DNA of 46,022 bases from a virus: the IMG/VR virus record IMGVR_UViG_3300045988_121238; one strand, 5' to 3'. Below the pieces are notes generated by a model. The model worked only from the letters and a program-made list of their open reading frames with translations, had not been told where the DNA came from and did no database searches. Position 1 is the first letter of the stretch. Each line of letters begins with the position of its first letter. This document shows, one piece after another, positions 146 to 22,410 of this stretch. The position numbers and the translations under genes were made by a program.

Positions 146-570
146 CTAACAAGGAAGTAGAACAGGGAAAGGAACAGATAACTGGAACAGGGAAGGAAAC
201 AGGGAATAGCTTGCCCGCGCAAGCGCCGTGGGAAACCGATCATTTTGACAACACCGTCAAAAAGATCGAAAAGCCGAAGGCAACAAGAGCCAAGCCTAAA
301 ACTTCCTGTCCTTTCTCTCCTGACGATCCCATTCCGACTGAATACCTCGAGTACGCACAGGCAAAGCATCCAAGCATCAACGCTCAGACGGAGTTCACCA
401 AGTTCGTCAACTTCCACCTTTCCAAAGACAACCGGTTCAGCAACTGGCTGGCCGCCTGGAGAACGTGGGCGACGAAAGCAGAAGAGTTCGCAAAGAAAAC
501 CCCAACCTACACATCCAACCGCTTCGTAGAGAAAAAGCAATCTGAACGCAATTACTCACTTGACTGGTGA
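1..570 (+). CDS. Replication initiator (lambda-O-like role), C-terminal part. Continues from 45621..46022 across the circular junction.
   Basis: This frame is open from nt 1 (the 13..570 track ORF is the same frame). It carries the same EVHDMKEGHEVK repeat as the ORF running off the right window end. The tail ...FTKFVNFHLSKDNRFSNWLAAWRTWATKAEEF is followed directly by a DnaC-like loader gene. Confidence 0.7.
   Translation, partial: EVHDMKEGHEVKEVHDMKGGGSSHEGGVVHLVKGGGSSHEGGVVHVVNPNKEVEQGKEQITGTGKETGNSLPAQAPWETDHFDNTVKKIEKPKATRAKPKTSCPFSPDDPIPTEYLEYAQAKHPSINAQTEFTKFVNFHLSKDNRFSNWLAAWRTWATKAEEFAKKTPTYTSNRFVEKKQSERNYSLDW
160..205. repeat. Four purine-rich rAACAGrrA repeats next to the iterons
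   Basis: GAACAGGGA (160), GAACAGATA (172), GAACAGGGA (185) and AAACAGGGA (197), spaced 12-13 nt apart. Confidence 0.6.
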
Positions 571-574
571 ATCA

Positions 575-1432: not shown

Positions 1433-1516
1433 TGATCCTCGACGAATTTATAGGACGCAACTGCACGTTTTCGGCTCAATCGCGGCCATTTGTTACCTGC
1501 TTAAGGACGTTTTCCA

Positions 1517-1762
1517 ATGAAATATTTTGAGATTCAGGGCTTTAAAAGCTACTTCGTTCGAGAGGATGGACAGGTCTTCTCTCGCGGTCAGTCGTGGACC
1601 TTCGGCAATTCTCGAACGTCCTGCAAACCCGTGCCACTCAAGCTCTCCAAGTACGGCAAATACTCTCTTCGACGCTGTGCGCAGCCGATTGCTCTGTCGC
1701 CTGAAGAGGTGTGGGAGAGAAAGGGCCAAGAGTTAACGGACGTAACGGAGGGGGCGAAATGA
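1517..1762 (+). pseudogene. N-terminal fragment of a NUMOD4-type (HNH-associated) homing endonuclease
   Basis: FEIQGFKSYFVREDGQVFSRG...KPVPLKLSKYGKYSL matches the NUMOD4 pattern (Y.VS..G.V.S ... GY..v.L). No HNH catalytic region follows, and the ORF is only 81 aa. Confidence 0.45.
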
Positions 1763-2259
1763 GGCGGAAGCATCTGCGCGTATCGGTCCCGTGGCCGTCA
1801 ATTGTCCTTTCTCCCAATGCTCGCGTTCATTGGGCTAAAAAAAGGACAGAGGTCCAGAAAGCAAGGAACTACGCCTACTGGGAGACTTGCTCCCGCGCCC
1901 ACGGTGAGCGCGCCGTTCAGGACACCTACTCGAACGAATCCGGAACGACCGAAGCCAAGATCACCGCCGACCTGTCCCGCATCGACATCTTGTGTCTCGA
2001 CGACGTTGCCGCCGACCCGACAACGTTCGAGTCGAAGCTCCTGACGCGAATCCTCGACGCGCGCTATCGCAACGACCGTCCGACCCTGATCGTCACGAAC
2101 CTGTCCATTCGCGAGAAGTGTGGGAAGCACTCTGAGTTCGACGCCTTCGTCGGGAATCTGGTTGCTTCGCGCGTCCACGAATGCGCGACGTTTGTGGACT
2201 GCACGACGACAGACTTCCGCCGCGGGCTGAAGCAGAGAAAGGTCGATCAAAACAACTGA
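1759..2259 (+). CDS. Chimeric ORF: RusA-like N-terminal segment fused to a DnaC-like C-terminal segment
   Basis: The N-terminus VPWPSIVLSPNARVHWAKKRTEVQKARNYAYWE is RusA-like. The C-terminus ILCLDDV...LLTRILDARYRNDRPTLIVTNLS parallels LVLDEIG...LYQIIDGRIKNGRPTILLTNL of the 575..1432 product. There is no Walker A and no RusA catalytic DxD region. GGAGGGGG precedes the ATG at 1759. Confidence 0.5.
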   Translation: MRRKHLRVSVPWPSIVLSPNARVHWAKKRTEVQKARNYAYWETCSRAHGERAVQDTYSNESGTTEAKITADLSRIDILCLDDVAADPTTFESKLLTRILDARYRNDRPTLIVTNLSIREKCGKHSEFDAFVGNLVASRVHECATFVDCTTTDFRRGLKQRKVDQNN

Positions 2260-2495
2260 AAGGAGACGTCATGACTAAAGTTGGCTTCAACAACCTCCCC
2301 GTTGACGGTTTCAGAGCAGATGCTGGCTTGAGTTAAGATGTAACTACAGGCGCAGCGCAGAGCTCTGGACGCTGTTCCAACTCGGCTACCTCGATACCGT
2401 CCGCGATATGCGGCGCGCTCAGGCGCAAAAGCTCATCGAACGAAAGGCGCTGCCGGAGATGCAGACGTTTTCGGATAAATGCAAGAGGAAAGTAA

Positions 2496-2933
2496 ATGGC
2501 AGAAGCGACTACCGAACCGATTGTCATGTTTTTTGTTCGCGGGATCCCAAAAGGCAAGGCTCGCCCTCGAGTGACAAGGACAGGGCACGCCTACACGCCC
2601 GCGGCGACTGTCGCATGGGAAAACCAGATCAGGCTGGCCGCCGTCCACGCAATGCGAAACGCTCCTATGCCTGACGGACACTTGGTCGTGCGGATGACGT
2701 TCTGTTTTAATCCGCCAAAGTCATACGCGAAAAAGCGCCGTGAATCACTCATGAGCGAGGGCAGGCCGATGCCACATAAGCCAGACATTGACAACCTCGT
2801 CAAAGCCGTGCTCGACGCTTGCAACGGAATCACATATCACGACGACGCAGCCGTTGTTGAGGTCAATGCGAAAAAGCGGTATGGTGCTGAAGATGGCGTC
2901 ATGGTCGCAATTGAAAAACTTATCTTTGAATAG
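2496..2933 (+). CDS. rusA: RusA-family Holliday junction resolvase
   Basis: GKARPRVT...TP..T..WE...; KPDIDNLVKAVLDACNGITYHDDAAVVEV is the RusA acidic catalytic motif. GAGGAAA precedes the ATG. Confidence 0.85.
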   Translation: MAEATTEPIVMFFVRGIPKGKARPRVTRTGHAYTPAATVAWENQIRLAAVHAMRNAPMPDGHLVVRMTFCFNPPKSYAKKRRESLMSEGRPMPHKPDIDNLVKAVLDACNGITYHDDAAVVEVNAKKRYGAEDGVMVAIEKLIFE

Positions 2934-2941
2934 GGAAAAAA

Positions 2942-3124
2942 ATGGAAAAATTGAAGGTCGAATATCGGAATACCTCTGACCTGATTCCTTACGCCAGAAA
3001 TGCGCTAACGCACTCCGAAGAGCAGGTGACGAGACTCGCGTCCAGCATCAAAGAGTTCGGATGGACGAACCCGATCCTAGTGGACGGTGAAGCTCGTTTG
3101 GTCTTTTACGCGATCAAGAATTAA
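2942..3124 (+). pseudogene. ParB-like nuclease-domain N-terminal fragment, probably the remnant of a ParB-domain DNA methyltransferase
   Basis: LIPYARNALTHSEEQVTRLASSIKEFGWTNPILVDGE matches the ParB-N start of phage ParB-methylase fusions. The ORF stops after 60 aa and no methylase motifs follow. Confidence 0.5.
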
Positions 3125-3221
3125 AACAACAAGTTGGCCGAAAACGTTCGTGAGAAACTCATTCGAGCTTCATATGGAAACTTTTTAAAGCGTCAACATG
3201 CTGAATTTAAGAGGAAAGACA

Positions 3222-3611
3222 ATGGGAAGAAAGGAAATACCGATTGATCTGAAAAAGGTCGAAGAGTACGCACAGGTTTGCGACTCAGAGGAGGAAATTG
3301 CGCTTGCTCTTGGCGTTTCATACGCAACCTTGAAGCGTCGAAAAAGGGATTTGGATCTTTTTGCTCAGGCTTTAAAAAGGGGGAGGAGCAAAGCCAACAT
3401 TTTCGTTGGCGGCAAGCTCATGCAAAAGATCAAGGACGGGGACATCGCTGCTACGATCTTTTACTTGAAATCCAGATGCGGATGGAAGGAGGCTCGCGCC
3501 GTAGAGCTGACTGGCAAAAACGGCGGCGCGATTGAGACGAGGTCAGAGGTTGTAGATCTGACGAACGCTCAAAAGGCGCTTCTTGACAAAGTGCTTGACG
3601 AAGAGTTTTAA
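3222..3611 (+). CDS. terS: Terminase small subunit (HTH type)
   Basis: Sits directly upstream of terL. HTH EEIALALGVSYATLKRRKR. ...GDIAATIFYLKSRCGWKE is typical of small-terminase C-regions. GAGGAAA precedes the ATG at 3222. Confidence 0.7.
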   Translation: MGRKEIPIDLKKVEEYAQVCDSEEEIALALGVSYATLKRRKRDLDLFAQALKRGRSKANIFVGGKLMQKIKDGDIAATIFYLKSRCGWKEARAVELTGKNGGAIETRSEVVDLTNAQKALLDKVLDEEF

Positions 3612-3645
3612 TTATTTTGGGCGTGCATGACACGCCCTCATTATT

Positions 3646-5082
3646 ATGTCGATAAGCGAACAACAGTTTTTGGATCACGTGCGCAAGCGGTGCGAGGACG
3701 ATTTCGAGTTCTTTGTGCGGTACTTTTTCAAGACATCAACTGGGCAAAAATTCAGAATCGCGGATTTTCACCGTCAAATTTTTTCGATTCTGACAGACGT
3801 TTGGAACGGCAAGAAAACGCACATCATTATCAACATCCCTCCGCGTCACGGGAAAACCCTGATTGCCGTCAAGATGTTTTCGGCGTGGTGCTTTGCGAAG
3901 AATCCGACTTGCGAATTTATTCATCTTTCGTACTCGGACGAACTTGCGCTTGACAACTCAAATTCAATCAAAGAGCTTGTTTCGTCAAAGGAGTTTCAGC
4001 AACTTTGGCCGACAGAGTTGAAAAAAGAATCGGATCGGGCATGGAAAACAGCGGCAGGCGGAGCGTTCTTTGCGCGTTCAGCAGGCGGCCAGGTGACTGG
4101 TTACGGTGCGGGTAAGGTAAATGACTTCACAGACGGGCACGGATTTGGTGGTGGAATTTTGCTTGACGATTTGCTCAAGCCAGATGATGCCAATTCGGAC
4201 GTGAGGCGAGAGGCTATCAATCGTCGCTGGGACGAAACGATTAAGAGTCGTTTCAACTCGACAAGGACTCCGTGCATCCTCATTATGCAAAGAATCCATG
4301 AGGATGATTTTTGCGCGATGCTGATGCGCGATAAGGAATATCATTTCGAGCGCATCATTTTGCCCGCGTTGCTCAATGAGGGAACGGATCACGAGGAATC
4401 TCTTTGGCCTGACAAGTACACGGTCGAGCAATTGCACGCCATGCGCGACAAAAATGGATACATGTTCGCTGCCCAGATGCAACAAAACCCGAGGCCGCTG
4501 GGCGGCGGAATCATAAAGAGCGCGTGGTTTGGCTACTACGACGTTCTTCCGAAGATCAAGTACCGAGCAATCTTCGTTGATACGGCTCAGAAGGAAAAGG
4601 AGTCGAACGACTACCAAGTTGCAAGCCTGTGGGGGCTTGGAGAAGACGGAGATCTGTACCTCATCGACATGATGCGCGATAAGTTCCAAGCGTATGAGTT
4701 GGAGGTGCGCATCCCTGCGTTTTGGAACAAGGCCAAGGCCGATCGCACATCACAGCTACGTTTCATGGGCGTCGAAGACAAGGCATCCGGAACGCAACTG
4801 ATACAGAACATCAGGCACAAGATCAGACCGGCAATTCCGTTGAAGGAAATAGAACGATCGCGCTCGAAACTAGAGCGCGTCATGGACGTGCAGGGCTACA
4901 TCGAGTCTGGGTACGTGAAACTTCCGCGCAGCGCCTCGTTCTTGAGTGACTTCATTTCCGAATGCGAGGCGTTCACGGCAAACGACAGTCATCCGCACGA
5001 CGACCAGATCGACACTATGTGTGATGCAATTACAATGATGCTGGCAAAGAAACACACGCTTTACGGCGATGTTGAATGGTGA
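3646..5082 (+). CDS. terL: Terminase large subunit
   Basis: Walker A IPPRHGKT and Walker B-like ILLDDLLKPDDA. C-terminal nuclease-type acidic motifs (FVDTA..., HDDQIDTMCDAI). 478 aa. Confidence 0.9.
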   Translation: MSISEQQFLDHVRKRCEDDFEFFVRYFFKTSTGQKFRIADFHRQIFSILTDVWNGKKTHIIINIPPRHGKTLIAVKMFSAWCFAKNPTCEFIHLSYSDELALDNSNSIKELVSSKEFQQLWPTELKKESDRAWKTAAGGAFFARSAGGQVTGYGAGKVNDFTDGHGFGGGILLDDLLKPDDANSDVRREAINRRWDETIKSRFNSTRTPCILIMQRIHEDDFCAMLMRDKEYHFERIILPALLNEGTDHEESLWPDKYTVEQLHAMRDKNGYMFAAQMQQNPRPLGGGIIKSAWFGYYDVLPKIKYRAIFVDTAQKEKESNDYQVASLWGLGEDGDLYLIDMMRDKFQAYELEVRIPAFWNKAKADRTSQLRFMGVEDKASGTQLIQNIRHKIRPAIPLKEIERSRSKLERVMDVQGYIESGYVKLPRSASFLSDFISECEAFTANDSHPHDDQIDTMCDAITMMLAKKHTLYGDVEW

Positions 5083-6506
5083 TGAAAATGACGAATAAGA
5101 GAACAACGCCCATGTCCGACGGCTTGATTAACAAGATGACGGGGCAGGGCACGGACAGGTCGAAGCGATCCCACTTCATTTGGGGCTACGAAAACATCAA
5201 CAACTATCAGGCGTATGAAGCCGCCTATCAGACGTCGTGGATTGCTCGCCGAATTTGCGACGTTGTGGCCGCAGACATGACCAAAATGTGGCGCGAAATC
5301 AAAAGCAACAAGGCTGATGAAATTCGATCCGAAGAAGATCGTCTAATGTTGCCTGCAAAGTTCAATGAGGCCGTGCGCTACGCTCGCCTGTATGGCGGAG
5401 CGGCAATCATCCCGATCACAAATCAAGATTTGCGGCAGCCGCTAGACGCCCGAAAGATCAAAAAGGGCGACCTGAAGCGCCTTTTGGTGCTTGATCGTTG
5501 GTACGTGACCGGTGCAAACATCAACGTTATGGACGTTTTGGACGAGGATTTCAATCTGCCGTCTGAATACTATGTGAACAACTCCAAATCAGTTACCATT
5601 CACAAGTCGCACGTCATCCGAGTCATCGGCGAGCCTTTGCCGATTCGCCTGGCTTTCCAAGCGCAGGGGTGGGGCGATTCGTCGTTGCGCCAGGCAATGG
5701 AAACCGTGGAGGACTTTTTGGCGTCAATCGGGGGCGTTGCAGAGTCCTTGCAGGAATTTAACGTCGACACGATCCGCAAAGACGGCCTGATGGACGAAAT
5801 CGGCACGGATCAGGAAGATCGAATCCTTGCGCGATTCCGTGCTTGGGGCATGATGAAATCGGTCTTCCGCGTTTCGTTGCTCGATGGCGATGAACAGTTC
5901 GAACGCAATCAGCTAACCTACTCGGGCGTTGCTGACATGATCGAGCTGATGATGAAGATGGTTTCGGGCGCGTCGAACATTCCTATGACGAAACTCTTTG
6001 GCGATTCTGCCAAGGGTTTAAACGCAACGGGCGAAGGCGACGAAAAGAACTACTTCGACTACATTTCGTCGCAACAGGCAGCGAAAATTGATCCGGCGCT
6101 TCGCAAGCTGGACGAGATTCTTGTGCGTTCTGCGATTGGCGACTTCCCGCAAGATTTCAACTACGCTTGGAATCCTCTTGCAACGCCGAGCGAAAACGAG
6201 GTTGCAACGGCCAATAAGACGCAGGCCGATGCCGACATTGCGTACCTTGAGGCAAACGTCATCACGGTGTCGCAGATTCAGCGAAACTTGCAAGCCAAGG
6301 AGAAATACCAATTCGACCCGAAGCGCATTGATGAGCTTGAACGCTTTGAAAACGAAATTCCGATGGAGGAAATGCTGAATGAGGGAAATTCGGGCGACGC
6401 GGGCGCAGGCGAAGGCGTTGACGAGCCTCCGCAAAAGAATGCTGACAAGGGCGTTCCCGCAAAGAGTGGAAGTGCAGTACAGGAAAAGCCTGTATCAGGT
6501 TCTTGA
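5076..6506 (+). CDS. Portal protein (DUF1073-like)
   Basis: 476 aa directly after terL. N-region ...YEAAYQTSWIARRICDVVAADMTK resembles the DUF1073 portal family. Low-complexity acidic and Gly-rich tail. Confidence 0.8.
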   Translation: MVMKMTNKRTTPMSDGLINKMTGQGTDRSKRSHFIWGYENINNYQAYEAAYQTSWIARRICDVVAADMTKMWREIKSNKADEIRSEEDRLMLPAKFNEAVRYARLYGGAAIIPITNQDLRQPLDARKIKKGDLKRLLVLDRWYVTGANINVMDVLDEDFNLPSEYYVNNSKSVTIHKSHVIRVIGEPLPIRLAFQAQGWGDSSLRQAMETVEDFLASIGGVAESLQEFNVDTIRKDGLMDEIGTDQEDRILARFRAWGMMKSVFRVSLLDGDEQFERNQLTYSGVADMIELMMKMVSGASNIPMTKLFGDSAKGLNATGEGDEKNYFDYISSQQAAKIDPALRKLDEILVRSAIGDFPQDFNYAWNPLATPSENEVATANKTQADADIAYLEANVITVSQIQRNLQAKEKYQFDPKRIDELERFENEIPMEEMLNEGNSGDAGAGEGVDEPPQKNADKGVPAKSGSAVQEKPVSGS

Positions 6507-8202
6507 CGGAATCACGAAGGCCACGCTTGACGCGATCAGCAACCCGCTGAAAACCGACTACGTGGCCGACGCATTCGGCGAGTACCTTGGGCGCATTCTT
6601 TCCGAACTGCTTGAACGCTTTACGGGAATCCGATTCCAGCGCATTGCCGACACAATTGCCCGTGCATTTGTTGATGACTCTCTCAAGTTCTCCGACGGTG
6701 TGTTTTCGCACGATTCGGCAAGGTCAGTCGGAATCAACATCTACAATACGCCTGAACTGAGAAAAGTCATCAGTCTTGCTACGGAGCAGAATGCGCAGTT
6801 GATTCGAAGCATTGCGTCTCAGCACCTTAACGCTATTGCGGGAATCGTCTATGAAAACGTGATGGCTGGCAACAGACCGAGCGCTATTGAAGCCGCAATT
6901 CGATCTTATGGCGTGACCAAAAGCCGTGCGCGATTGATTGCTCGTGACCAGACTTCCAAGGTTCTCAGCTCGATCAGCAAAGCACGGCAGCGGGATGCAG
7001 GTTTTGAGTTCTTCAAGTGGGATACCTCTCACGATGAGCGCGTAAGACCGTCTCACCGAGAGGCGCAAGACAGGGTGACGAAGTACGGCGTCGGCGTTTA
7101 CCGTTGGGATGAACTGCCAACGGTTGACGGAGAAAGGACGAGTCCCGGCATGGCTATAAATTGCTTCCCCGGATCAGTCAAGGTAAATATCTTGTACGGT
7201 GCGGAAAAGCTGTTTAGGCGCGTCTACTCTGGCAAATTGGTTGAGATCGTTACGGACGATGGCGTAGTTTTGCAATCTACACCCAATCACCCGATACTTA
7301 CTCGCAAAGGATTCGTCCCCGCAAATGCTTTGAATGTCGGCGATGAGGTTATCAATGTCCCACATCAGGGATTCCTCGTCGGCGAAGTAAACGGCAATAG
7401 TGCGGATGTTGCTTTCGAGGAGCTTTTTGGAACGCTTTTTGAACTTTTCGGTTCTGAATCGGTATGCACTACAGCAGGAGATTTCTACGGCGACGCATCC
7501 GTTAACGAGGATGTCAATGTTGTATCGATCGACTGGGTGCTGTGTGGAAACGCTGAATCCAAAAGAACGCAATTGCTCTGCAAGGACTTCCTCACCCGGG
7601 CCGAAAAATTTTTTGGTCTGCTTGACGAACCTTGTGATGGCAGATTTGTGGATGCTTGCGGATTTTTTGGGCTTCCCCCTGACGGCATCGTGAGCCTTGC
7701 GGGTAAGTTCTTGTCTTTCTTCGGTCGTTGTGTTTCGCATTCTGATGAACATAGCCTCGCTTCGGTTGGGCTGTTGTATTCCTCCTTCGTTAAGAATGCG
7801 GGTGATAACGTTACGAGAGACTTTGTATTGCTCGGCAATGCGTTTGATGCTAATGCCACTAAGAACAAGCGACTTGAGTTCCTCAAAAGGTATCTCTATT
7901 CGGTTGTGTGCCTTGACTTTATTTCGGGGAATTTTGTAACCCCACGAGCGAAGGCGTTCACTGACAGTGTCGGGGTGTATTCCTATGCAACGACTAGCAT
8001 CAGTGAGGGTCTTCCCATCAAGCATCATTTGGTAAGCATCAAGGAAAAGAGACTTTTCGATTTTTCGGGACATGTTTATGACCTCCAAATGAAAAACGGA
8101 CTGTTTGTTGCTAACAGTATAGCAGTCAGCAACTGCCGTTGTGTTGCGTTACCGATTTTAGAAAGCGAGGTCGAAGAGTTTCAGAGGAGAAAACGAAAAT
8201 GA
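6379..8202 (+). CDS. MuF / SPP1-gp7-like head morphogenesis protein precursor containing an intein
   Basis: MuF-type motifs ...WDTSHDERVRPSHREAQDRV... PGMAIN|[intein]|CRCVALP. GGAGGA lies 9 nt before the ATG at 6379. Overlaps the portal 3' end by 128 nt. Confidence 0.85.
   Translation: MREIRATRAQAKALTSLRKRMLTRAFPQRVEVQYRKSLYQVLDGITKATLDAISNPLKTDYVADAFGEYLGRILSELLERFTGIRFQRIADTIARAFVDDSLKFSDGVFSHDSARSVGINIYNTPELRKVISLATEQNAQLIRSIASQHLNAIAGIVYENVMAGNRPSAIEAAIRSYGVTKSRARLIARDQTSKVLSSISKARQRDAGFEFFKWDTSHDERVRPSHREAQDRVTKYGVGVYRWDELPTVDGERTSPGMAINCFPGSVKVNILYGAEKLFRRVYSGKLVEIVTDDGVVLQSTPNHPILTRKGFVPANALNVGDEVINVPHQGFLVGEVNGNSADVAFEELFGTLFELFGSESVCTTAGDFYGDASVNEDVNVVSIDWVLCGNAESKRTQLLCKDFLTRAEKFFGLLDEPCDGRFVDACGFFGLPPDGIVSLAGKFLSFFGRCVSHSDEHSLASVGLLYSSFVKNAGDNVTRDFVLLGNAFDANATKNKRLEFLKRYLYSVVCLDFISGNFVTPRAKAFTDSVGVYSYATTSISEGLPIKHHLVSIKEKRLFDFSGHVYDLQMKNGLFVANSIAVSNCRCVALPILESEVEEFQRRKRK
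7162..8133 (+). mobile_element. Intein (324 codons) inserted between N and C of the MuF 'NCRC' motif
   Basis: Block A CFPGSVKV, block B LQSTPNHPILT plus GFVPANALNVGDEV, blocks F/G HVYDLQMKNGLFVANSIAVSN followed by +1 Cys (CRC). Removing it restores ...PGMAIN-CRCVALP. Confidence 0.8.
7174..8073 (-). CDS. Antisense-encoded putative homing endonuclease inside the intein: two HTH segments plus a DUF559/Vsr-like PD-(D/E)XK core
   Basis: ATG at 8073 with GGAGG at 8082-8086. HTH-like LTDASRCIGIHPDTVSERL and SIKRIAEQYKVSRNVITRIL. Core EEVLAEQLRSFGF...VDRYNIDILVNGCVAVEISC...KKLLESNIRTIAVYF resembles the DUF559 pattern (E..L..L...Q..v..y.vD....vavEvdG...R...L...G..v.rf). Normal protein-like composition, unlike the sense frame here. 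Confidence 0.6.
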   Translation of the reverse strand: MSRKIEKSLFLDAYQMMLDGKTLTDASRCIGIHPDTVSERLRSWGYKIPRNKVKAHNRIEIPFEELKSLVLSGISIKRIAEQYKVSRNVITRILNEGGIQQPNRSEAMFIRMRNTTTEERQELTRKAHDAVRGKPKKSASIHKSAITRFVKQTKKFFGPGEEVLAEQLRSFGFSVSTQHPVDRYNIDILVNGCVAVEISCCSAYRFRTEKFKKRSKKLLESNIRTIAVYFADEESLMWDIDNLIADIQSICGDESFASKYRVIGCRLQNYAIVRNDLNQFARVDAPKQLFRTVQDIYLD

Positions 8203-9320
8203 ATGAAGTTCAAATAACGGATAGGGCGAGTGATTTTCTTGGAAACTCGACTCGCCAGACGTTGGAAAATGGTTTTTTGAAAGTGAAGGGGCGCGTTGCG
8301 CGTTCTGGCATTCAAAGCTACTACCGGTGCGAATTGGGATTGAAGGACGAGCCGTTTAAGCGCATTCGCCTTTACCGCCCGCCTGAAGTGGTTTTGTCGG
8401 ACGAGGTTTGCAAAATGTTCGACGGTGTTGACGTGACGAATGAGCACCCGAAAGAGTTCATTGACAAGATGAATTATCGAAAACTGACTGCGGGGGTCGT
8501 CCTTGGAAATGCGCAAAAGGACGAAGAGAACCCGAATTTCATTGTCTGCGACATGCTGATCAAGGACGCTGATACAATTAAGTCAATTGAGGCGGGTAAA
8601 ATCCAGTTGTCAGTGGGATACAGAAACACCATTGATTTCACGGATGGTGTTACGCCTGAAGGTGAAAAGTATGACGCAAGAGTGGATAAAATCACTCTCG
8701 TTAATCACGTCGCACTTGTGCCTCGCGCGAGAGCTGGCATTGAGGCGCGTCTTTTCGATTCGTTCGGAGGAAAAATGAAGAATCTCAAAATCGGCGATGC
8801 TGAGTTCGAGTTGAACGACGATGTGGCCTCGGCCATTGAATCGCGCATCAACGAACTGGAGGCGCGCGCCAAGACCGCCGAAGAAGCTGTCGGAATGAAG
8901 GACAGCGAAATCGGCGAACTCACCGCTAAGGTTTCTGATCTCGAAAAGAGTTTGGAAGATGCCAAGGCAATGATCTTGACTGACGAAGATATTAAGGAAG
9001 TTGTCAAGAAGACCGCGACCTTGATGGACGATGCCCGCAAGATTGCGGGCGAAACTTTTGTGTGCGACTCTTTCGATCCGCTCGAAATCAAGAAGGCTGC
9101 GATCAAGGCTGCCTATCCTGACGTTGCGCTCGACGACAAGGCCGACGACTTCGTTAGCGGCTTCTTTGCTCACGCTGTCAGCACCGCTGGCGTTGGTATG
9201 AACGACTCGCTGAAGAAGCTCGGCCAAGCTATGACGGACGTGGACGACGATAAGAAGGAAGACCAAGACGCTTACAAGAAGCATATGCAGAAGATTGCTG
9301 ACGCTTGGAAGTGCAAGTAA
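8199..9320 (+). CDS. Scaffolding/prohead core protein (DUF2213-like N-domain plus coiled-coil C-region)
   Basis: GFLKVKGRVARSGIQSYY...IRLYRPPEVV...FDGVDVTNEHP resembles DUF2213. Acidic coiled-coil tail. ATG overlaps the upstream stop (ATGA) and GAGGAG lies upstream. Confidence 0.65.
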   Translation: MNEVQITDRASDFLGNSTRQTLENGFLKVKGRVARSGIQSYYRCELGLKDEPFKRIRLYRPPEVVLSDEVCKMFDGVDVTNEHPKEFIDKMNYRKLTAGVVLGNAQKDEENPNFIVCDMLIKDADTIKSIEAGKIQLSVGYRNTIDFTDGVTPEGEKYDARVDKITLVNHVALVPRARAGIEARLFDSFGGKMKNLKIGDAEFELNDDVASAIESRINELEARAKTAEEAVGMKDSEIGELTAKVSDLEKSLEDAKAMILTDEDIKEVVKKTATLMDDARKIAGETFVCDSFDPLEIKKAAIKAAYPDVALDDKADDFVSGFFAHAVSTAGVGMNDSLKKLGQAMTDVDDDKKEDQDAYKKHMQKIADAWKCK

Positions 9321-9341
9321 TTTTTTTAAAGAGGTAACTAA

Positions 9342-9824
9342 ATGGCAATTACCAAGACTGTGGCTCTTGTCCACGACAAGGCTTACGCGGGTATGGTGGC
9401 TGACCTTCAGCTTGCTAACCGCGTTTCTCGCTTTAATGCGACTTCCGCTGTGATTCCGTTCGGCACGGCAGTGCAGGCTGACACCGATGCGGGCTCTATG
9501 AAGCCCATCGCATCTGGCGGCACCGCAATCGGCGTTCTCGTGCGCGAACTCGTCGACGTGACGAACCCCGGCAGCGAACAGGGTGTGAACGTTGGCAAGA
9601 CCGGCACTGTCCTGACCGATGGTGTGATTTGGGTCAAGGCTTATGAAGCTGTCACTGTGGGCGGTAATGTCTTCGCTGGCGTTGGCGCGACTGTGAAGGG
9701 CTATTTCTGCGCGGCCGCCGGCTCGGAAGGCACTGAAGCTGTTCAGATCACTGGAGCTAAGTACCTTGACGCGGCTTCTGCGAAGGGTGATCTGGTTCGC
9801 ATCAAGATTACGATTGGGGGTTGA
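9342..9824 (+). CDS. Putative head decoration/cement protein (DUF2190-like)
   Basis: 160-aa Gly/Ala/Val-rich beta protein between scaffold and capsid genes. GAGGT precedes the ATG. Confidence 0.5.
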   Translation: MAITKTVALVHDKAYAGMVADLQLANRVSRFNATSAVIPFGTAVQADTDAGSMKPIASGGTAIGVLVRELVDVTNPGSEQGVNVGKTGTVLTDGVIWVKAYEAVTVGGNVFAGVGATVKGYFCAAAGSEGTEAVQITGAKYLDAASAKGDLVRIKITIGG

Positions 9825-9829
9825 TTGAA

Positions 9830-10876
9830 ATGAAGAAGAATATTGTTTCCGTCGCTGTGTCGGACGCCATGGCTGAACGCTTTGGCCTTGCCAGCGCAAA
9901 TGTGAGCTATAACGCCGCCATGAACGACGGCGATAGCGGCGTGGCTTTTATGATTTCTCAGCTGGCTTACATCGAGCCGAAGCTGTATGAAACGCCTTAC
10001 GCTGACATCTTCTTTGAAAATCTCGTCCCGATCGACACCGCTATTCCTGAATGGACGGAAACTGTCAACTACCGTTCTTACGATGGCGTCACGATGGGCA
10101 AGTTCATCGGCGCTTCCGCTGACGATCTGCCGTCCGTCGCCATGTCGGCTGAAATCCACGCGGTTCAGCTCGGCTATGCTGGCATGAGTGTGCAGTACAG
10201 TCTTGACGAGCTGCGCAAGTCGACCGCCATGAACATGCCGATCGACCAGACGCAGATGCGTTTTGCATACCGTGGCGCCAAGGAACACCAGCAGAAGATC
10301 GTTTTCTTCGGTGATGCCAAGCGCAAGATGTTCGGTCTTTTCAACCACCCGAACGTCACCAAGACGAACTCGAACGTTGACTGGAACACGGCCAGCGCTC
10401 AGGAAATTCTGGACGACATCAACAAGTTCCTTGGCGACATTTGGGAAGACACGAATCAGCGATTCATGCCGAACACCCTGCTGCTCGACACCAAGCGCTA
10501 TCGCCTGATCGCGAACAAGCCCTACGGCGTTTCTGCCGACGGCACGCAGGTCGGATTTACGACGGTTCTTGACTTCCTGAAGCAGAAGAATCTCGCAACG
10601 ATCGAACGCGGCATTCAGCTCGACATTCGCCCGATCCCGTTCCTGCTTGCATCCCAGCTGACGGCCAATGGCGTGACGGGCAATAAGGATCGCATGGTGG
10701 CTTATGAGAAGTCTCCTGACAACCTTGTGGCCTACATGCCTATCGCTCCGCGATTCATTGCTCCCCAGTACCATAACCTGATGATCAAGGTGCCGATGGA
10801 GTACAAGATTTCCGGTACTGAATTCCGCTATCCGCAGTGCGCGGCCTACTGCGAATTCGATACGGCTATCTCGTAA
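9830..10876 (+). CDS. Major capsid protein (DUF2184-like)
   Basis: Position after scaffold and decoration genes. ...QLAYIEPKLYETPYADIFFENLVPID... resembles the DUF2184 coat family. GGGGG lies 9 nt before the ATG at 9830. Confidence 0.75.
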   Translation: MKKNIVSVAVSDAMAERFGLASANVSYNAAMNDGDSGVAFMISQLAYIEPKLYETPYADIFFENLVPIDTAIPEWTETVNYRSYDGVTMGKFIGASADDLPSVAMSAEIHAVQLGYAGMSVQYSLDELRKSTAMNMPIDQTQMRFAYRGAKEHQQKIVFFGDAKRKMFGLFNHPNVTKTNSNVDWNTASAQEILDDINKFLGDIWEDTNQRFMPNTLLLDTKRYRLIANKPYGVSADGTQVGFTTVLDFLKQKNLATIERGIQLDIRPIPFLLASQLTANGVTGNKDRMVAYEKSPDNLVAYMPIAPRFIAPQYHNLMIKVPMEYKISGTEFRYPQCAAYCEFDTAIS

Positions 10877-10885
10877 GGAGGCGTC

Positions 10886-11167
10886 ATGATCGCTGTTCGC
10901 AATGTCGGTCTTTGCAATGTTCGGATCAACCTCGATGAAAATCGCCGCTTTCTGATTCCTGTAGGCGGTGCTGAAAGTGTCGAGTTGCCCGACGATGTGA
11001 AGAACTTGTCTTTCTTTAAGGATCGACTGGATGATGGCTCTTTGGTCATCGAGCGCGATGAGCCGGATCAAAAGGAGCCTGAAAAGAAGCGCGGCCGACC
11101 TGCAAAGGAAAAGCCTGCCGACCCCGATGTGGACGACAAGTCCGAAGCGGATGAGGCAAAAGCGTAA
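10886..11167 (+). CDS. Hypothetical head-module protein with a basic/acidic tail containing an AT-hook-like KKRGRPAKEKP
   Basis: AAGGAGG precedes the ATG. 93 aa. Followed by an intrinsic terminator. Confidence 0.5.
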   Translation: MIAVRNVGLCNVRINLDENRRFLIPVGGAESVELPDDVKNLSFFKDRLDDGSLVIERDEPDQKEPEKKRGRPAKEKPADPDVDDKSEADEAKA

Positions 11168-11180
11168 GGCATAGCCCGAA

Positions 11181-11209
11181 GCCCTCCGAATTTTCGGGGG
11201 GCTTTTTTT
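11181..11209 (+). terminator. Rho-independent terminator after the capsid block
   Basis: GCCCTCCG-AATTTT-CGGGGGGC followed by TTTTTTT. Confidence 0.7.
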
Positions 11210-11222
11210 AATGGAGAAAAAC

Positions 11223-11567
11223 ATGGATGAAACTCAGACCTTACCTGTCAGACACGATTTGTCTGCGGCAGTTGGTGAAAAGTGCGAGTTCTGTGTCGAT
11301 GTTGATGGAGACATTAACCTTGATTTCGCTGTTGCGAATTACACTGTCAAGGAAGATTCTTCGGATGGCGACGTTGTGAAATCGGGTTGCCTCAACTTCG
11401 TTGATGGAAAGGCCTTTTTCGAATTGTCGAGCGCAGAAACGAAGACGATGGGCCAAGGGCTTTTCTACTATGATTTGTGGCTGAAAGATGGCGACGACAT
11501 GATTCGGCCTATCGTTTACGGTCAAATCCATTTGGTGAAACTTCCGACGGAAGGGGGTTGCGCATGA
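11223..11567 (+). CDS. Small beta-rich protein, paralogue of 29843..30187
   Basis: Both share ...F.L.....T......G.F.YDL.L.......I..G...L... and both precede a fibre gene. GGAGA lies 5 nt before the ATG at 11223. Confidence 0.5.
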   Translation: MDETQTLPVRHDLSAAVGEKCEFCVDVDGDINLDFAVANYTVKEDSSDGDVVKSGCLNFVDGKAFFELSSAETKTMGQGLFYYDLWLKDGDDMIRPIVYGQIHLVKLPTEGGCA

Positions 11568-12862
11568 GCTGCACAACGATCAAAGTGACGGTCATCGGCA
11601 GTCCGTCTGGCGTTCTTTCGATCCTGGACGCCGCAAATAAAGCCGTAAAGGACGCAGAGAGCGCGCGTGATGAGTCTTTCTTGTCGCGAGACGCGGCAAA
11701 AACGAGCGCCAGCGAGTCCTCAGACAGTGCGAGAAAAGCGCAGGCCTCGGCGAGCGACTCTGCACAATCCGCTTTGAAGGCCAAAGAGTCCGAGGGCACC
11801 GCGCAAGGCTTTGCCGATGACGCGCAGACGTCGATGGTTGGCGCGAAAGGCGCGATGGCGCAGGCAAAGGTGTACCGAGATCAAGCCAAGCAGTTCGCAG
11901 GTCAGCGTCTGCCCGTAGACGTGAAGCATGACGGGAAGACGGTTGGCGTCGGCTTGCTGGCTATCGATTTTGTCGGCTCTGGCGTGGACGTGGTTTCCAC
12001 GGGTGAACAGCAATACAAAGTCACCATCACCGACACGGGTTCTCTGGTCACGTGGTCAAACCTGTCAGGCAAGCCGTCGACTTTTCCGCCCGCGGCGCAC
12101 AAGCATGCAATTTCTGATGTGACGGGTTTGCAATCCGCCTTAGACGGAAAGCAGGCCGCTGGAAGCTACGCGACGGCAGCGCAACTCGGTCAAAAGCTGG
12201 ATGCATCAACGTTCAATAGCGAAAAGGCAAACTTTGCGAAGGTGAACGAAGCAAACACGTTCGCAAAGATGATTAAGCTTGATGTTGACGGTGTTGCAGA
12301 CACGGATGTTGCGAACGTTCGGACTGTAAAAGACCTCATTGCAAGTCAGGCTGTTGTGCAAGCGAATTCTGATGGTCTTTTGACGGCGAGAGTTCGCACG
12401 CTAGAACAAGAGGAGCCGGCATCACTGAACATCACAGCCAACGACGCCGACAAGACCATCACGATCAAACTTCTCGCAAAAGGAAAAACAGTTGCAAGCG
12501 GTACCGTGGACATTAGTGGAATGTTTACGACGCCGAGCCAACCCGCGCCTGTCAACCACCCTGTTTATTTTGGTTTCTCGGTTTCTGGCACGCCTGATGA
12601 ATCGGAAATCAAGGCCGCGACCACAAAGAGTGTCACGAAGATCGATGGTCAGGCGCTTGATTTTGTACGCACCGGGAAGGCTCCTGCCTATCTTTTCGCG
12701 TGGATTCCTGACGCTCTGGGAAGCGTGAGCGGCTTTTCTTCGGGCGGCTTCCTAGACGTCTGGAAGTCGTCCGCTGTGACTGTTGACGGTGTAGCGGGAA
12801 AGCTGTTCGTTTCCGATAACCCGACTGCCACTGAAAACATTGTTTTGGAGGTCAAGGCATGA
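11564..12862 (+). CDS. Fibre-like structural protein
   Basis: N-terminal Ala/Ser/Lys coiled region (AKDAESARDES...SASESSDSARKAQASASDSAQSA). Motif VTWSNLSGKPSTFPPAAHKHAISDVTGLQSALDGKQAAGSYA is shared with the 30180..32420 fibre. ATGA overlap with the upstream gene. Confidence 0.6.
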   Translation: MSCTTIKVTVIGSPSGVLSILDAANKAVKDAESARDESFLSRDAAKTSASESSDSARKAQASASDSAQSALKAKESEGTAQGFADDAQTSMVGAKGAMAQAKVYRDQAKQFAGQRLPVDVKHDGKTVGVGLLAIDFVGSGVDVVSTGEQQYKVTITDTGSLVTWSNLSGKPSTFPPAAHKHAISDVTGLQSALDGKQAAGSYATAAQLGQKLDASTFNSEKANFAKVNEANTFAKMIKLDVDGVADTDVANVRTVKDLIASQAVVQANSDGLLTARVRTLEQEEPASLNITANDADKTITIKLLAKGKTVASGTVDISGMFTTPSQPAPVNHPVYFGFSVSGTPDESEIKAATTKSVTKIDGQALDFVRTGKAPAYLFAWIPDALGSVSGFSSGGFLDVWKSSAVTVDGVAGKLFVSDNPTATENIVLEVKA

Positions 12863-15318: not shown

Positions 15319-15328
15319 AGGGGGTTTT

Positions 15329-15751: not shown

Positions 15752-15752
15752 C

Positions 15753-17094: not shown

Positions 17095-17129
17095 AATTCG
17101 AATAGCCATTTTTAAGGAGCTTCAAAAAA

Positions 17130-18269: not shown

Positions 18270-18281
18270 TAGAGGTTAAAG

Positions 18282-20610: not shown

Positions 20611-20611
20611 G

Positions 20612-22408: not shown

Positions 22409-22410
22409 TC

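What the first reader, a model, noticed from the sequence alone, without database searches (positions are those of the whole stretch)
7162..8133. Intein splitting the conserved N|CRC motif of the MuF/SPP1-gp7-like head morphogenesis protein
The 6379..8202 ORF is MuF-like up to ...RVRPSHREAQDRV...TSPGMAIN and again from CRCVALP. Between these lie 324 codons. They start with CFPGSVKV (Hint block A), contain LQSTPNHPILT (block B, TxxH) and end with HVYDLQMKNGLFVANSIAVSN followed by Cys (blocks F/G plus the +1 nucleophile). Excision would recreate the family's '..NCRC..' signature exactly. The penultimate residue is Ser rather than the usual His. The recognisable N-terminal Hint part is short, about 66 aa.
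Basis: partly seen in the sequence, partly recalled or inferred. Interest (0 to 1): 0.7.

Follow-up and report, generated by a model that had tools for sequence, protein, structure and literature searches.

The report
MuF intein with opposite-strand homing endonuclease
A phage head-assembly gene is interrupted by a self-splicing protein element (intein) whose mobility enzyme is encoded backwards on the opposite DNA strand of the same codons. This rare layout was recently described in other phages, so this is a new example rather than a new kind of element.

Summary
ORF 6379..8202 (+) is a MuF/SPP1-gp7-type head morphogenesis gene carrying a 324-codon class-1 intein (7162..8133) between Asn261 and the Cys of the family's CRC motif. 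Removing it restores an uninterrupted MuF match.

It is the mirror image of a real 299-aa gene on the minus strand (8073..7174), in exact codon register, encoding two HTH modules and a Vsr/I-Bth0305I-like nuclease.

- Homology: it has a free-standing homolog and 2,357 database relatives.
- Selection: purifying selection switches strands, antisense in the middle and sense at both Hint ends.
- Structure: the sense-frame middle is predicted disordered, while the antisense protein folds confidently.
- Stop avoidance: ten nested copies avoid all TTA/CTA/TCA codons (60 expected, joint P about 1e-30), which keeps the host frame open.
- Expression signals: an SD, the ATG and an extended -10 lie inside the Hint-C coding region.

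The same architecture ("VSR -1 ORF" in MuF-like minor capsid inteins) was reported for actinobacteriophages in a 2025 bioRxiv preprint, and its Gordonia members are homologs of this one. Verdict: real and correctly interpreted as an intein, a new member of a known kind from a non-actinobacterial phage. Splicing and homing are inferred, not shown.

The parts
6379..7161 (+). MuF / SPP1-gp7-like head morphogenesis protein, N-extein (aa 1-261, ends ...SPGMAIN)
   Evidence: Pfam Phage_Mu_F and phrog_324/phrog_15127 hits. Normal codon-position pattern against a 66%-identical relative: differences 0.31/0.22/0.62 at positions 1/2/3.
7162..8133 (+). Class-1 intein, 324 codons: Cys1 ... Ser-Asn, followed by Cys+1
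   Evidence: Boundaries read directly from the sequence.
7162..7368 (+). Hint N-terminal splicing region (intein residues 1-69), including block A CFPG and block B TPNHPILT (7279..7302)
   Evidence: 10-residue pLDDT block means about 62-91 across aa 261-330. T301, N303, H304 and P305 are invariant in 40 homologs. The sense frame is the more conserved one here.
7369..8019 (+). Sense-frame 'linker' of the intein (aa 331-547). It is kept open but is not an independently conserved or folded domain; it is the mirror of the endonuclease gene.
   Evidence: pLDDT is mostly below 50 despite a 40-sequence alignment; 10-residue block means are 28-55 apart from a short helix at about 341-360 (means 77 and 65). 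No family hits. The sense frame is less conserved than the antisense frame. AT skew is -0.205 against about +0.09 to +0.11 in the terminase, portal, N-extein and next-gene regions.
8020..8133 (+). Hint C-terminal splicing region (blocks F and G: GHVYDLQMKNGLFVANSIAVSN)
   Evidence: 10-residue pLDDT block means of 91, 82 and 73 across aa 551-580, with the long strand pair E550-571. TIGR01443 reaches its cut-off. The sense frame is the more conserved one.
8134..8202 (+). MuF C-extein (CRCVALPILESEVEEFQRRKRK plus stop)
   Evidence: The alignment to intein-free MuF continues through ...N|CRC...
7174..8073 (-). Homing-endonuclease gene on the opposite strand: 299 aa plus stop, in exact codon register with the intein (covers intein codons 5-304). 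The stop TGA is the mirror of the Ser5 TCA codon. The ATG is the mirror of the block-F His CAT codon.
7786..8055 (-). Two helix-turn-helix DNA-binding modules of the endonuclease (aa 7-43 and 63-96)
   Evidence: Pfam HTH_Tnp_ISL3 scores 28.0 bits (GA 27.4) and HTH_23 scores 26.8 (GA 24.6). Three-helix units appear in the AlphaFold model.
7303..7593 (-). Vsr / PD-(D/E)XK-type nuclease core (aa 161-257), with invariant E161 (7591-7593), D187 (7513-7515) and E197 (7483-7485)
   Evidence: 3R3P (I-Bth0305I catalytic domain) is the top hit by sequence profile (E 0.006) and the only compact fold match (TM 0.66-0.67, rmsd 3.4 A). Weak MTES_1575 hit. Residue conservation across 127 representatives.
7183..7299 (-). 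C-terminal beta-hairpin tail of the endonuclease (aa 259-297), encoded by the mirror of Hint-N including block B (YRVIGC mirrors TPNHPI)
   Evidence: 10-residue pLDDT block means of 84-91. The tail is not homologous to the tail of the free-standing relative. The tail ORF is open in 10 of 10 elements against about 15 expected mirror stops.
8082..8086 (-). Shine-Dalgarno GGAGG, 8 nt upstream of the endonuclease ATG; it is the mirror of the block-F Asp-Leu-Gln codons
   Evidence: Read from the sequence. GGAG or GAGG is present in most relatives.
8116..8124 (-). Candidate extended -10 promoter TGCTATACT for the endonuclease gene, inside the block-G coding region (prediction only)
   Evidence: The identical element occurs in the 66% relative. 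TGTTATAAT is found in Aaphi23, TGCTATAAT in two Salmonella phages and TGATAAAAT upstream of the free-standing copy, all 37-54 nt from the ATG.

Best explanation
The segment 7162..8133 is a class-1 intein inserted in the MuF head-morphogenesis gene, immediately before the Cys of the conserved (N)CRC motif.

How the host gene is served: the whole 607-codon precursor is translated from the plus strand. The two Hint halves (about 69 N-terminal and about 38 C-terminal residues) associate. Cys1, block-B Thr/His, the terminal Asn and Cys+1 then carry out standard protein splicing, which releases a 283-aa MuF protein.

How the element moves: the intein's mobility function is not an in-frame domain. 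It is a separate 299-aa protein (two HTH modules plus a Vsr/I-Bth0305I-like nuclease) translated from the minus strand of the same codons (8073..7174). It is expressed from its own SD/ATG and probably its own extended -10 promoter, both embedded in the Hint-C coding region. By analogy with its family, it should cut intein-free MuF alleles near the ...AAT|TGCCGTTGT... site during co-infection. Repair from the intein-bearing genome then copies the intein and endonuclease together (homing).

The dual constraint: the host protein must be read through, so the endonuclease gene never uses TTA, CTA or TCA, whose complements are stop codons. The central roughly 215 residues of the intein polypeptide are therefore just a selected-open, probably disordered linker.

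Shown here: the anatomy, homology, strand-switching selection, stop avoidance, extein continuity and sporadic distribution. Inferred: splicing, expression, cleavage and homing.
For: INTEIN
- Extein continuity.
- Invariant Cys1, T-x-N-H-P, Asn and Cys+1 in 40 homologs.
- TIGR01443 reaches its cut-off, and there are local hits to intein-bearing models.
- The Foldseek top hits are all intein splicing domains.
- Within Jedunavirus, intein-bearing phages (KpTDp1, several RCIP) sit beside many intein-free relatives.

ANTISENSE GENE IS REAL
- tblastn finds it in 116-119 phage records down to about 24-26% identity, and nested in MuF on the opposite strand in 8 other phage genomes examined, where it is unannotated.
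- An annotated free-standing homolog in Acinetobacter phage IME285 has an opposite strand that is closed, with 12 forbidden codons.
- 2,357 HMMER relatives, mostly about 299 aa.
- HTH Pfam hits above GA.
- 3R3P is the best hit by sequence and by fold.
- AlphaFold mean pLDDT is 77 from only 5 sequences, whereas the sense middle is mostly below 50 with 40 sequences.

SELECTION
- In nine diverged phages the middle ~240 codons have antisense identity of 0.25-0.50 against sense identity of 0.17-0.42, antisense higher in every 30-column bin. Antisense-synonymous changes number 81-286 against 27-88, and variation peaks at antisense position 3. At both Hint ends this reverses.
- Against a 66% relative, the extein pattern is 0.31/0.22/0.62 and the intein middle is 0.35/0.08/0.30.
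- AT skew flips.

OPEN-FRAME CONSTRAINT
- 0 forbidden codons observed against 60.4 expected in ten nested genes, joint P about 1e-30.

INTERNAL CONTROL
- Six other long mirror ORFs in this window have no family hits, while their partner strand does.

EXPRESSION SIGNALS
-.

LITERATURE
- The same architecture and homologous Gordonia members (Vivi2, Malisha, Fosterous, Angelicage) are listed as 'minor capsid, MuF-like, class 1, VSR -1 ORF' (bioRxiv 10.1101/2025.01.02.630785).
Against: - No experiment of any kind: splicing, minus-strand transcription, translation of the 299-aa protein and DNA cleavage are all inferred.
- The window's own sequence is below the curated thresholds of PF14890 (23-27 bits against 35.8) and TIGR01445 (17-20 against 24.5).
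- The penultimate intein residue is Ser, not His.
- The link to I-Bth0305I is weak (E 0.006; Foldseek E 5e-3). The His and the last Asp of the EDxHD motif are not conserved in this family; the window has Tyr204 and Arg214 at the aligned positions. The catalytic mechanism, and even activity, is therefore uncertain.
- In this genome open antisense frames are common. For the window alone, stop avoidance is only P = 0.03; the strength comes from the relatives.
- The lineages used for joint probabilities are not fully independent.
- The promoter is a consensus match only. The generic sigma-70 scan found nothing above chance.
Confidence: 0.85

Rival explanations
1. The intein is real, but the opposite-strand endonuclease is a decaying or domesticated relic. 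It is no longer expressed or no longer cuts, and the element is now inherited only vertically.
For: The window's protein lacks a His at the position of the I-Bth0305I/Vsr general base and has Arg at the D222-equivalent. The promoter is only a consensus match. The 2025 preprint notes that several VSR-like groups show vertical-looking inheritance.
Against: The ORF is intact at 250-301 aa in 10 of 10 elements. E161, D187 and E197 are 99-100% invariant in 127 representatives. The antisense frame is under stronger purifying selection than the sense frame in the middle. The SD, ATG and extended -10 recur. Distribution within Jedunavirus is sporadic. The missing His is a property of the whole family, not a lesion specific to this copy.
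Confidence: 0.12
2. This is a conventional intein whose central region is an in-frame, novel or degenerate endonuclease or linker domain. The opposite-strand ORF is a meaningless by-product of codon usage.
For: Long open antisense frames in codon register are common in this genome; the longest runs found in genes are 380, 361 and 308 codons. P for the window alone is only 0.03.
Against: The antisense ORF has a free-standing annotated homolog whose mirror strand is closed, thousands of relatives, Pfam HTH hits above GA, a nuclease fold and a confident structure model. The sense-frame middle has no hits and is mostly below pLDDT 50. Conservation and synonymous-change counts favour the antisense frame. 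None of the six control mirror ORFs has any hit.
Confidence: 0.02
3. The 324-residue segment is a native, non-splicing insertion domain of this MuF lineage and stays in the mature protein.
For: Curated intein profile scores are below threshold for this sequence. The penultimate residue is Ser.
Against: All splicing nucleophiles and block B are invariant. 691 phage records cover at least 80% of the spliced extein in one place, and the listed hits run uninterrupted through the junction. The Phage_Mu_F match becomes contiguous only after conceptual excision. Structural neighbours are inteins.
Confidence: 0.01

Closest known systems
'Anti-sense VSR-like HEN' ('VSR -1 ORF') class-1 inteins in MuF-like minor capsid proteins of actinobacteriophages (Gosselin, Arsenault & Gogarten, bioRxiv 10.1101/2025.01.02.630785; e.g. 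Gordonia phages Vivi2 gp14, Malisha gp5, Fosterous gp12, Angelicage gp15)
   Same: Same host protein family and the same insertion site (N|C(R/K)C). Same intein class. Same -1 codon register of the opposite-strand ORF. The endonucleases are homologous, at about 24-35% identity with E from 1e-3 to 1e-24.
   Different: This copy is in a roughly 51-52% GC myovirus-like phage, related at the protein level to Edwardsiella phage MSW-3 and Klebsiella Jedunavirus, not in an actinophage. [quoted passage not shown] Here the ORF covers intein codons 5-304, so it overlaps block B and block F. The start codon, SD and putative promoter sit inside Hint-C.
I-Bth0305I / 'EDxHD' Vsr-like homing endonucleases (Dassa et al. 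2009, PMC2677866; Taylor et al. 2011, PMC3239194; PDB 3R3P)
   Same: Bipartite design with N-terminal DNA-binding modules and a C-terminal Vsr-fold nuclease. Found in phages and associated with self-splicing elements. E170, D196 and E206 of I-Bth0305I align with the invariant E161, D187 and E197 here.
   Different: The His (H213) and Asp (D222) of the EDxHD motif are not conserved; an invariant R/K214 takes that place. The DNA-binding modules are HTH_23/ISL3-type rather than NUMOD. Known family members are intron-encoded, free-standing or sit between split-intein halves on the same strand, not on the antisense strand of a contiguous intein.
Anti-sense LAGLIDADG endonuclease in the Synechocystis DnaX intein (Gorbalenya 1998, as cited; see also bioRxiv 10.64898/2026.09.14.751524)
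   Same: A contiguous intein whose homing endonuclease is read from a frame other than the intein's own, so the host frame must be kept open across it.
   Different: A different nuclease family (LAGLIDADG), a different host gene and a cellular rather than phage genome.
Fractured genes: split inteins separated by a free-standing Vsr-like or other endonuclease gene (Dassa et al. 2009)
   Same: An endonuclease gene with its own expression signals lies between the N- and C-terminal splicing halves. This fits the model of a free-standing endonuclease invading an intein.
   Different: Here the host reading frame is not broken. The intein is contiguous (607 codons open) and would splice in cis.

Membership tests
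Intein (class 1, Hint fold) | In-frame insertion at a conserved host-protein site; the exteins join into a contiguous homolog | tested here: met
   Phage_Mu_F rises from 43.4 to 56.6 bits and then spans the junction, reaching 4-111 of 112. Contiguous intein-free MuF genes occur in phage records. BLASTP to IME285 MuF runs through N|CRC.
Intein (class 1, Hint fold) | Nucleophile at residue 1 (Cys/Ser), block B T-x-x-H, C-terminal Asn, and +1 Cys/Ser/Thr | tested here: met
   Cys262, Thr301..His304, Asn585 and Cys586 are all invariant in 40 aligned homologs.
Intein (class 1, Hint fold) | Penultimate His in block G | tested here: not met
   The window, MSW-3, KpTDp1, PvVp04 and Aaphi23 have Ser; Vivi2 has Arg; Malisha and the Salmonella phages have His. 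From general knowledge (not tested here), inteins lacking this His can still splice, so it is not strictly defining.
Intein (class 1, Hint fold) | Curated intein profile models reach their thresholds | tested here: inconclusive
   TIGR01443 intein_Cterm scores 15.8 against a cut-off of 15.6 (met). TIGR01445 scores 17.2-20.1 against 24.5, and PF14890 scores 23-27.5 against 35.8 (not met). Many homologs carry a precomputed PF14890 hit.
Intein (class 1, Hint fold) | Hint (horseshoe beta) fold | tested here: inconclusive
   The Foldseek top hits are intein splicing domains (2IMZ, 6FRG, 2LQM, 4O1R, 6RIZ) with probability 0.96-1.0, but E is at least 0.013 and TM is low because the domain is split within a 607-aa model.
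Intein (class 1, Hint fold) | Autocatalytic protein splicing | not testable with these tools
   Needs expression of the precursor and detection of ligated exteins.
Anti-sense VSR-like HEN inteins of MuF-like minor capsid proteins (Gosselin et al. 2025) | Host is a MuF-like minor capsid protein; contiguous class-1 intein | tested here: met
Anti-sense VSR-like HEN inteins of MuF-like minor capsid proteins (Gosselin et al. 2025) | Endonuclease ORF on the antisense strand in the -1 frame, inside the intein | tested here: met
   ORF 8073..7174 is in exact codon register. The same holds in 9 relatives.
Anti-sense VSR-like HEN inteins of MuF-like minor capsid proteins (Gosselin et al. 2025) | Sequence homology to listed members (Vivi2, Fosterous, Angelicage, Malisha) | tested here: met
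   tblastn E 1e-24 to 2e-10 at 26-35% identity, with the same insertion site.
EDxHD / Vsr-like homing endonucleases (I-Bth0305I) | Vsr-type nuclease fold in the C-terminal half | tested here: met
   3R3P is the only compact Foldseek match (TM 0.66-0.67 on the target, rmsd 3.4 A over 96 columns) and the top profile hit (E 0.006). The evidence is consistent but weak.
EDxHD / Vsr-like homing endonucleases (I-Bth0305I) | Composite catalytic motif E...D...x...H...D conserved | tested here: not met
   E161 and D187 (and E197) are 99-100% conserved. There is no conserved His at the H213-equivalent (window Tyr204), and R/K replaces Asp at the D222-equivalent, across 127 representatives.
EDxHD / Vsr-like homing endonucleases (I-Bth0305I) | Site-specific double-strand cleavage of the element-free allele | not testable with these tools
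   Needs a biochemical assay.
Fractured gene / naturally split intein (Dassa et al. 2009) | Host ORF broken into two genes, each carrying half an intein | tested here: not met
   The plus-strand frame is open for all 607 codons here and in all nested relatives.

The most novel reading that the evidence does not exclude
Almost the whole intein (300 of 324 codons) may be a bidirectionally coding segment in which both strands carry functional information.

- The endonuclease's C-terminal beta-hairpin (aa 259-297) is encoded by the mirror of the Hint-N strands, including catalytic block B.
- Its promoter, SD and start codon are written into Hint blocks F and G.
- This tail is absent from the free-standing relative, so it would have arisen by antisense overprinting after the endonuclease gene entered the intein.

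If so, these MuF inteins would be a widespread model of long antisense dual coding, with a built-in sense/antisense transcription conflict between a late structural gene and its parasite. Thousands of database relatives exist, and most of the closest ones carry the block-B mirror motif. Earlier descriptions place the secondary ORF mostly outside the splicing domain.
Probability: 0.4. Interest if true: 0.6.

Novelty: new member of a known kind. Interest (0 to 1): 0.45.

Why it matters
**For annotation.** In all eight deposited phage genomes I examined with this arrangement, the 299-aa gene is unannotated. On metagenome contigs, gene callers sometimes call it instead of MuF and so truncate the head gene (L010). 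The element is far more widespread than the actinophage survey suggests. It occurs in Salmonella Jerseyvirus, Klebsiella Jedunavirus, Edwardsiella, Vibrio, Aggregatibacter and Idiomarinaceae phages, and there are 2,357 representative clusters.

**For biology.**
- It is a clean natural case of about 900 bp read in both directions under measurable dual constraint.
- It supports the idea that free-standing endonuclease genes invade pre-existing mini-inteins. An Acinetobacter phage keeps a homolog free-standing, convergent to MuF and only about 55 nt from the equivalent insertion site.
- It offers a compact Hint domain of about 107 residues with a long tolerated insert, and a new Vsr-fold nuclease variant (E-D-E-R/K), for protein-engineering and gene-targeting work.

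Tried and rejected
1. blastn of the MuF gene against phages found only a 147-nt stretch in Edwardsiella phage MSW-3. DNA-level comparison was useless, so I switched to tblastn.
2. The word-indexed protein search with the antisense protein returned only 4 hits, because nested genes are rarely called. The exhaustive HMMER search was needed.
3. I tested whether the free-standing Acinetobacter gene is an escaped nested copy carrying an intein fossil. The mirror of its tail shows no Hint similarity (score 20 against 20.9 +/- 4 for shuffles) and contains stops. Its tail is also not similar to the nested tails (14 against 19.4 +/- 3.9). The 'HVHSLM*' mirror reading upstream of its ATG is explainable by its SD and start codon alone. 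Rejected as evidence of a fossil.
4. The generic sigma-70 scan gave one weak site at 8184-8155, not above the shuffle expectation. Discarded in favour of the recurring extended -10, which is itself only a prediction.
5. The first codon-usage calculation used some out-of-frame reference segments. I redid it with clean frames.
6. Foldseek SurE hits to the antisense model (rmsd 10-13 A) were dismissed as spurious.
7. Literature searches for 'intein + MupF', 'intein + MuF' and 'opposite strand' gave nothing relevant. My recollection that InBase lists an Aaphi23 'MupF' intein could not be verified here.
8. Class-3 intein was considered and rejected: Cys1 is present and invariant.
9. Split intein or fractured gene was rejected: there is no stop in the sense frame.
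Full report
**1. Observation**

ORF 6379..8202 (+) is open for 607 codons. Its N-terminal 261 residues match Phage_Mu_F (PF04233, E 6e-11) and head-morphogenesis PHROGs. phrog_15127, a 602-position 'head protein' profile, matches end to end including the insert, so relatives with the same insert were already in phage databases.

- AAT (Asn261) at 7159-7161, then TGC (Cys, intein residue 1) at 7162-7164.
- AGC-AAC (Ser-Asn) at 8128-8133, then TGC-CGT-TGT (Cys-Arg-Cys) from 8134.

**2. It is an intein**

- Conceptual excision raises the Phage_Mu_F score from 43.4 to 56.6 bits. The match then crosses the junction to profile position 111 of 112.
- tblastn with the spliced 283-aa product finds 916 phage records. 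In 691 of them one place covers at least 80% of the query. The listed top hits are single pieces running through the junction, including many Klebsiella Jedunavirus genomes. A minority of the same genus (KpTDp1, several RCIP phages) carry the insert. That is the sporadic distribution expected of a mobile element.
- In an alignment of 40 insert-bearing homologs the invariant residues are Cys1, Thr/Asn/His/Pro of block B, the C-terminal Asn, Cys+1 and the second Cys of CRC.
- TIGR01443 (intein C-terminal) reaches its curated cut-off. TIGR01445 and PF14890 hit the right places but below threshold. The N-terminal part also matches the intein portions of IF-2, RtcB and Tes intein-containing models at E 1e-7 to 1e-10.
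- The AlphaFold model of the precursor is mostly confident for MuF, for aa 262-330 and for aa 548-585. Its nearest PDB neighbours are intein splicing domains: Mtu RecA, Ssp and Npu DnaB, Pho RadA and gp41-1.
- The intein is class 1, because Cys1 is present. The penultimate Ser is shared with several relatives, while others have His or Arg.

**3.

The ORF listing shows a 304-codon ORF at 7174..8088 (-), wholly inside the intein. It is in exact codon register with the sense frame.

It hits HTH_Tnp_ISL3 and HTH_23 above their gathering scores and, weakly, a Vsr-type REase family. The sense-frame middle hits nothing.

tblastn finds this protein in 116-119 phage records down to about 24-26% identity. 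In Edwardsiella MSW-3, Klebsiella KpTDp1, Vibrio PvVp04, Aaphi23, Gordonia Vivi2 and Malisha, and Salmonella STM-ZS and SGPC, it lies inside the MuF/head gene on the opposite strand. It is unannotated there, and both strands are open.

In Acinetobacter phage IME285 a homolog is an annotated free-standing gene, and there the opposite strand is closed. It sits convergent to, and 7 nt overlapping, an intein-free MuF gene. That gene's M|CKC site is about 55 nt from its stop codon.

An exhaustive HMMER search finds 2,357 cluster representatives (203 at E <= 1e-30), mostly 295-300 aa and matching end to end. This supports ATG 8073 as the true start, giving a 299-aa product. So do the four closest hits, all exactly 299 aa.

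**4. Which strand is selected where**

Using the codon register, I scored the same codon columns in both frames across nine diverged elements.

| Region | Antisense identity | Sense identity | Changes synonymous in antisense | Changes synonymous in sense | Position varying most |
|---|---|---|---|---|---|
| Central ~240 codons | 0.25-0.50 | 0.17-0.42 (lower in every bin) | 81-286 | 27-88 | antisense position 3 |
| First ~75 and last ~30 intein codons | 0.21-0.30 | 0.33-0.46 | 29-75 | 93-232 | sense position 3 |

Against a 66%-identical metagenomic relative (L011), the exteins show the ordinary pattern of 0.31/0.22/0.62 differences at positions 1/2/3. The intein middle shows 0.35/0.08/0.30, with antisense identity 70% against sense 65%. 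Loss of the third-position excess in either orientation, together with a very low shared second position, is what dual constraint predicts.

The AT skew of the plus strand flips from about +0.09 to +0.11 in the terminase, portal, N-extein and next-gene regions to -0.205 in 7387-8016.

Structure prediction agrees. The antisense protein has mean pLDDT 77 from only five sequences. It shows two three-helix units, an alpha/beta nuclease core (aa 161-257, block means 81-92) and a C-terminal hairpin. Sense residues 331-547 are mostly below pLDDT 50 with 40 sequences; block means are 28-55 except for a short helix at about 341-360.

**5. Keeping the host frame open**

In this register, a sense-frame stop would be the complement of a TTA, CTA or TCA codon in the endonuclease gene. 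Given each protein's Leu and Ser content and the codon usage of neighbouring genes, 60.4 such codons are expected in ten nested genes. None is observed, for a joint P of about 1e-30. For the window alone P is 0.031. The free-standing copy has 12 in 297 codons.

As a caution, open antisense frames are common in this genome because these three codons are rare. Six other mirror ORFs of 247-493 aa exist in the window. None has a PHROG hit, while the partner strand is tail sheath, Rha-like regulator, SSB or tail fibre, or the known structural genes at 8-11 kb. Openness alone is therefore no evidence here. Homology and selection are.

**6. The nuclease**

The best solved-structure match by sequence profile is 3R3P, the catalytic domain of I-Bth0305I (E 0.006, aa 161-250). 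It is also the only compact Foldseek match (TM 0.66-0.67 on the target, rmsd 3.4 A).

That family is defined by the composite EDxHD motif: E170, D196, H213 and D222, plus N208 (PMC3239194). In 127 representatives of the present family, E161, Q178, Y184, D187 and E197 are 98-100% conserved and position 214 is R/K in 99%. There is no conserved His or Asp at the H213 and D222 equivalents.

So it works like, and is related to, the Vsr-like homing endonucleases, but it is not a strict EDxHD member. The active site looks like E-D-E-(R/K). The DNA-binding part is HTH-type rather than NUMOD.

**7. Overlap with the splicing domain, and expression signals**

The minus-strand ORF covers intein codons 5-304.
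- Its stop is the mirror of the Ser5 TCA codon (7174-7176).
- Its ATG (8073-8071) is the mirror of the His codon of block F (GHVYDL reads as EVINM in reverse). This holds in all nine nested phage copies checked.
- GGAGG (8086-8082) lies 8 nt upstream and mirrors the Asp-Leu-Gln codons. GGAG or GAGG recurs in most relatives.
- TGCTATACT (8124-8116) is an extended -10-like element. The same element, or TGTTATAAT or TGCTATAAT, lies 37-54 nt upstream of the ATG in the 66% relative, Aaphi23 and both Salmonella phages. TGATAAAAT precedes the free-standing copy. This is a prediction; the generic promoter scan was uninformative.

The last ~50 residues of the endonuclease are a confident beta-hairpin encoded by the mirror of Hint-N. 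YRVIGC mirrors TPNHPI, and the motif is present in most of the 127 representatives. This tail is not homologous to the tail of the free-standing protein, whose mirror strand shows no Hint fossil. Yet the tail ORF is open in 10 of 10 elements against about 15 expected mirror stops. The joint P is about 1e-7, or about 1e-5 with one member of each close pair. The stop always falls within intein codons 2-16. This suggests, but does not prove, that the overlap with Hint-N is functional on both strands.

**8. Mechanism (inferred)**

- Late transcription of the plus strand yields the precursor.
- The Hint halves (about 69 plus about 38 residues) fold around a disordered linker of about 215 residues and splice in cis, restoring ...AIN-CRC...
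- The minus-strand gene is expressed separately.
- Its product recognises the conserved MuF DNA around the insertion site in intein-free phages and cuts it.
- Recombinational repair then copies the whole element.
- The convergent, adjacent free-standing copy in Acinetobacter phages fits the invasion model of Dassa et al. 2009 and Gosselin et al. 2025. It would also explain why the nested gene is antisense.

**9. Comparison with what is known, and novelty**

Antisense LAGLIDADG endonucleases in inteins have been known since 1998, as cited. A 2026 preprint revisits the dnaX case.

The exact architecture found here is described for actinobacteriophages in bioRxiv 10.1101/2025.01.02.630785: a contiguous class-1 intein in a MuF-like minor capsid protein with a Vsr-like endonuclease in the -1 frame. 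Its supplementary table lists Vivi2, Malisha, Fosterous, Angelicage and Affeca as 'VSR -1 ORF'. I recovered these same phages independently as homologs.

The window is therefore a new member of a known kind.
- the class is widespread outside actinophages;
- quantitative evidence for strand-switching selection and stop avoidance;
- the non-EDxHD active-site pattern;
- the extent of overlap with the splicing blocks, including the embedded start signals.

**10. Caveats**

- All functional statements are inferences.
- The alignment for the antisense structure model is shallow.
- The 3R3P similarity is weak.
- The lineages in the joint probabilities are only approximately independent.
- The window's own statistics are modest without its relatives.

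Noticed in passing
window 17112..18239 (-), 8610..9899 (-), 9743..11224 (-), 31356..32246 (-), 38189..38950 (+), 40955..41698 (+): Six long ORFs (247-493 aa) lie mirror-image to real genes: tail sheath 17130..18269, the protease/scaffold-capsid region, tail fibre 30180..32420, Rha-like regulator 38243..39091 and SSB 41021..41665. None has any PHROG hit. They are artefacts of the genome's low use of TTA/CTA/TCA, and naive ORF calling would pick some of them over the true gene.
   Followed up: yes
L007 (Acinetobacter phage vB_AbaM_IME285) 455..1348 (+) and 1342..2055 (-): A free-standing homolog of the endonuclease lies convergent to an intein-free MuF gene, with a 7-nt 3' overlap. That puts it about 55 nt from the position equivalent to the intein insertion site (M|CKC). 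This is a plausible precursor state for the nested, antisense arrangement. The same hit occurs in Acinetobacter phages P1068 and BUCT629, which I did not inspect.
   Followed up: partly
window 5076..6506 (+) versus 6379..8202 (+): The portal-like ORF and the MuF ORF overlap by 128 nt if MuF starts at ATG 6379. In the 66% relative the overlap is 44 nt. An internal Met21 (6439) would shorten it, and PHROG matches to MuF begin only around aa 18-29. The true MuF start is uncertain.
   Followed up: no
window 8184..8202: The MuF stop TGA (8200-8202) overlaps an ATG at 8199-8201 (ATGA), which is preceded by GAGGAG. The downstream gene, homologous to Pa193_gp24-type genes in related contigs, therefore probably starts at 8199, not at the TTG 8139 listed mechanically. 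It is likely translationally coupled to MuF.
   Followed up: no
L010 (ENA metagenome scaffold) 1936..2835 (+) and 2939..3559 (-): On this contig the gene caller called the antisense endonuclease and truncated MuF to a 206-aa N-terminal fragment. In all eight deposited phage genomes inspected the reverse happens: MuF is called and the endonuclease is missed. This is a systematic annotation problem for the element class.
   Followed up: partly
whole window 1..46022: The window looks like most of a myovirus-type phage genome. Terminase, portal, MuF, protease/scaffold, capsid, tail sheath and tail fibre are on the plus strand; the Rha-like regulator and SSB are on the minus strand from about 35 kb. 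GC is about 51-52% and there are no tRNAs. It has no close DNA relative in the phage collection. The nearest protein-level relatives are Edwardsiella phage MSW-3 (Yokohamavirus), Klebsiella Jedunavirus and Logan metagenome contigs (SRR13307567 and SRR13307586) at 66% MuF identity.
   Followed up: partly
window 8017..8133: GC content falls to 0.385 in the Hint-C coding region, against about 0.50-0.54 for neighbouring genes. This is the stretch that also carries the putative promoter, SD and start codon of the antisense gene.
   Followed up: no
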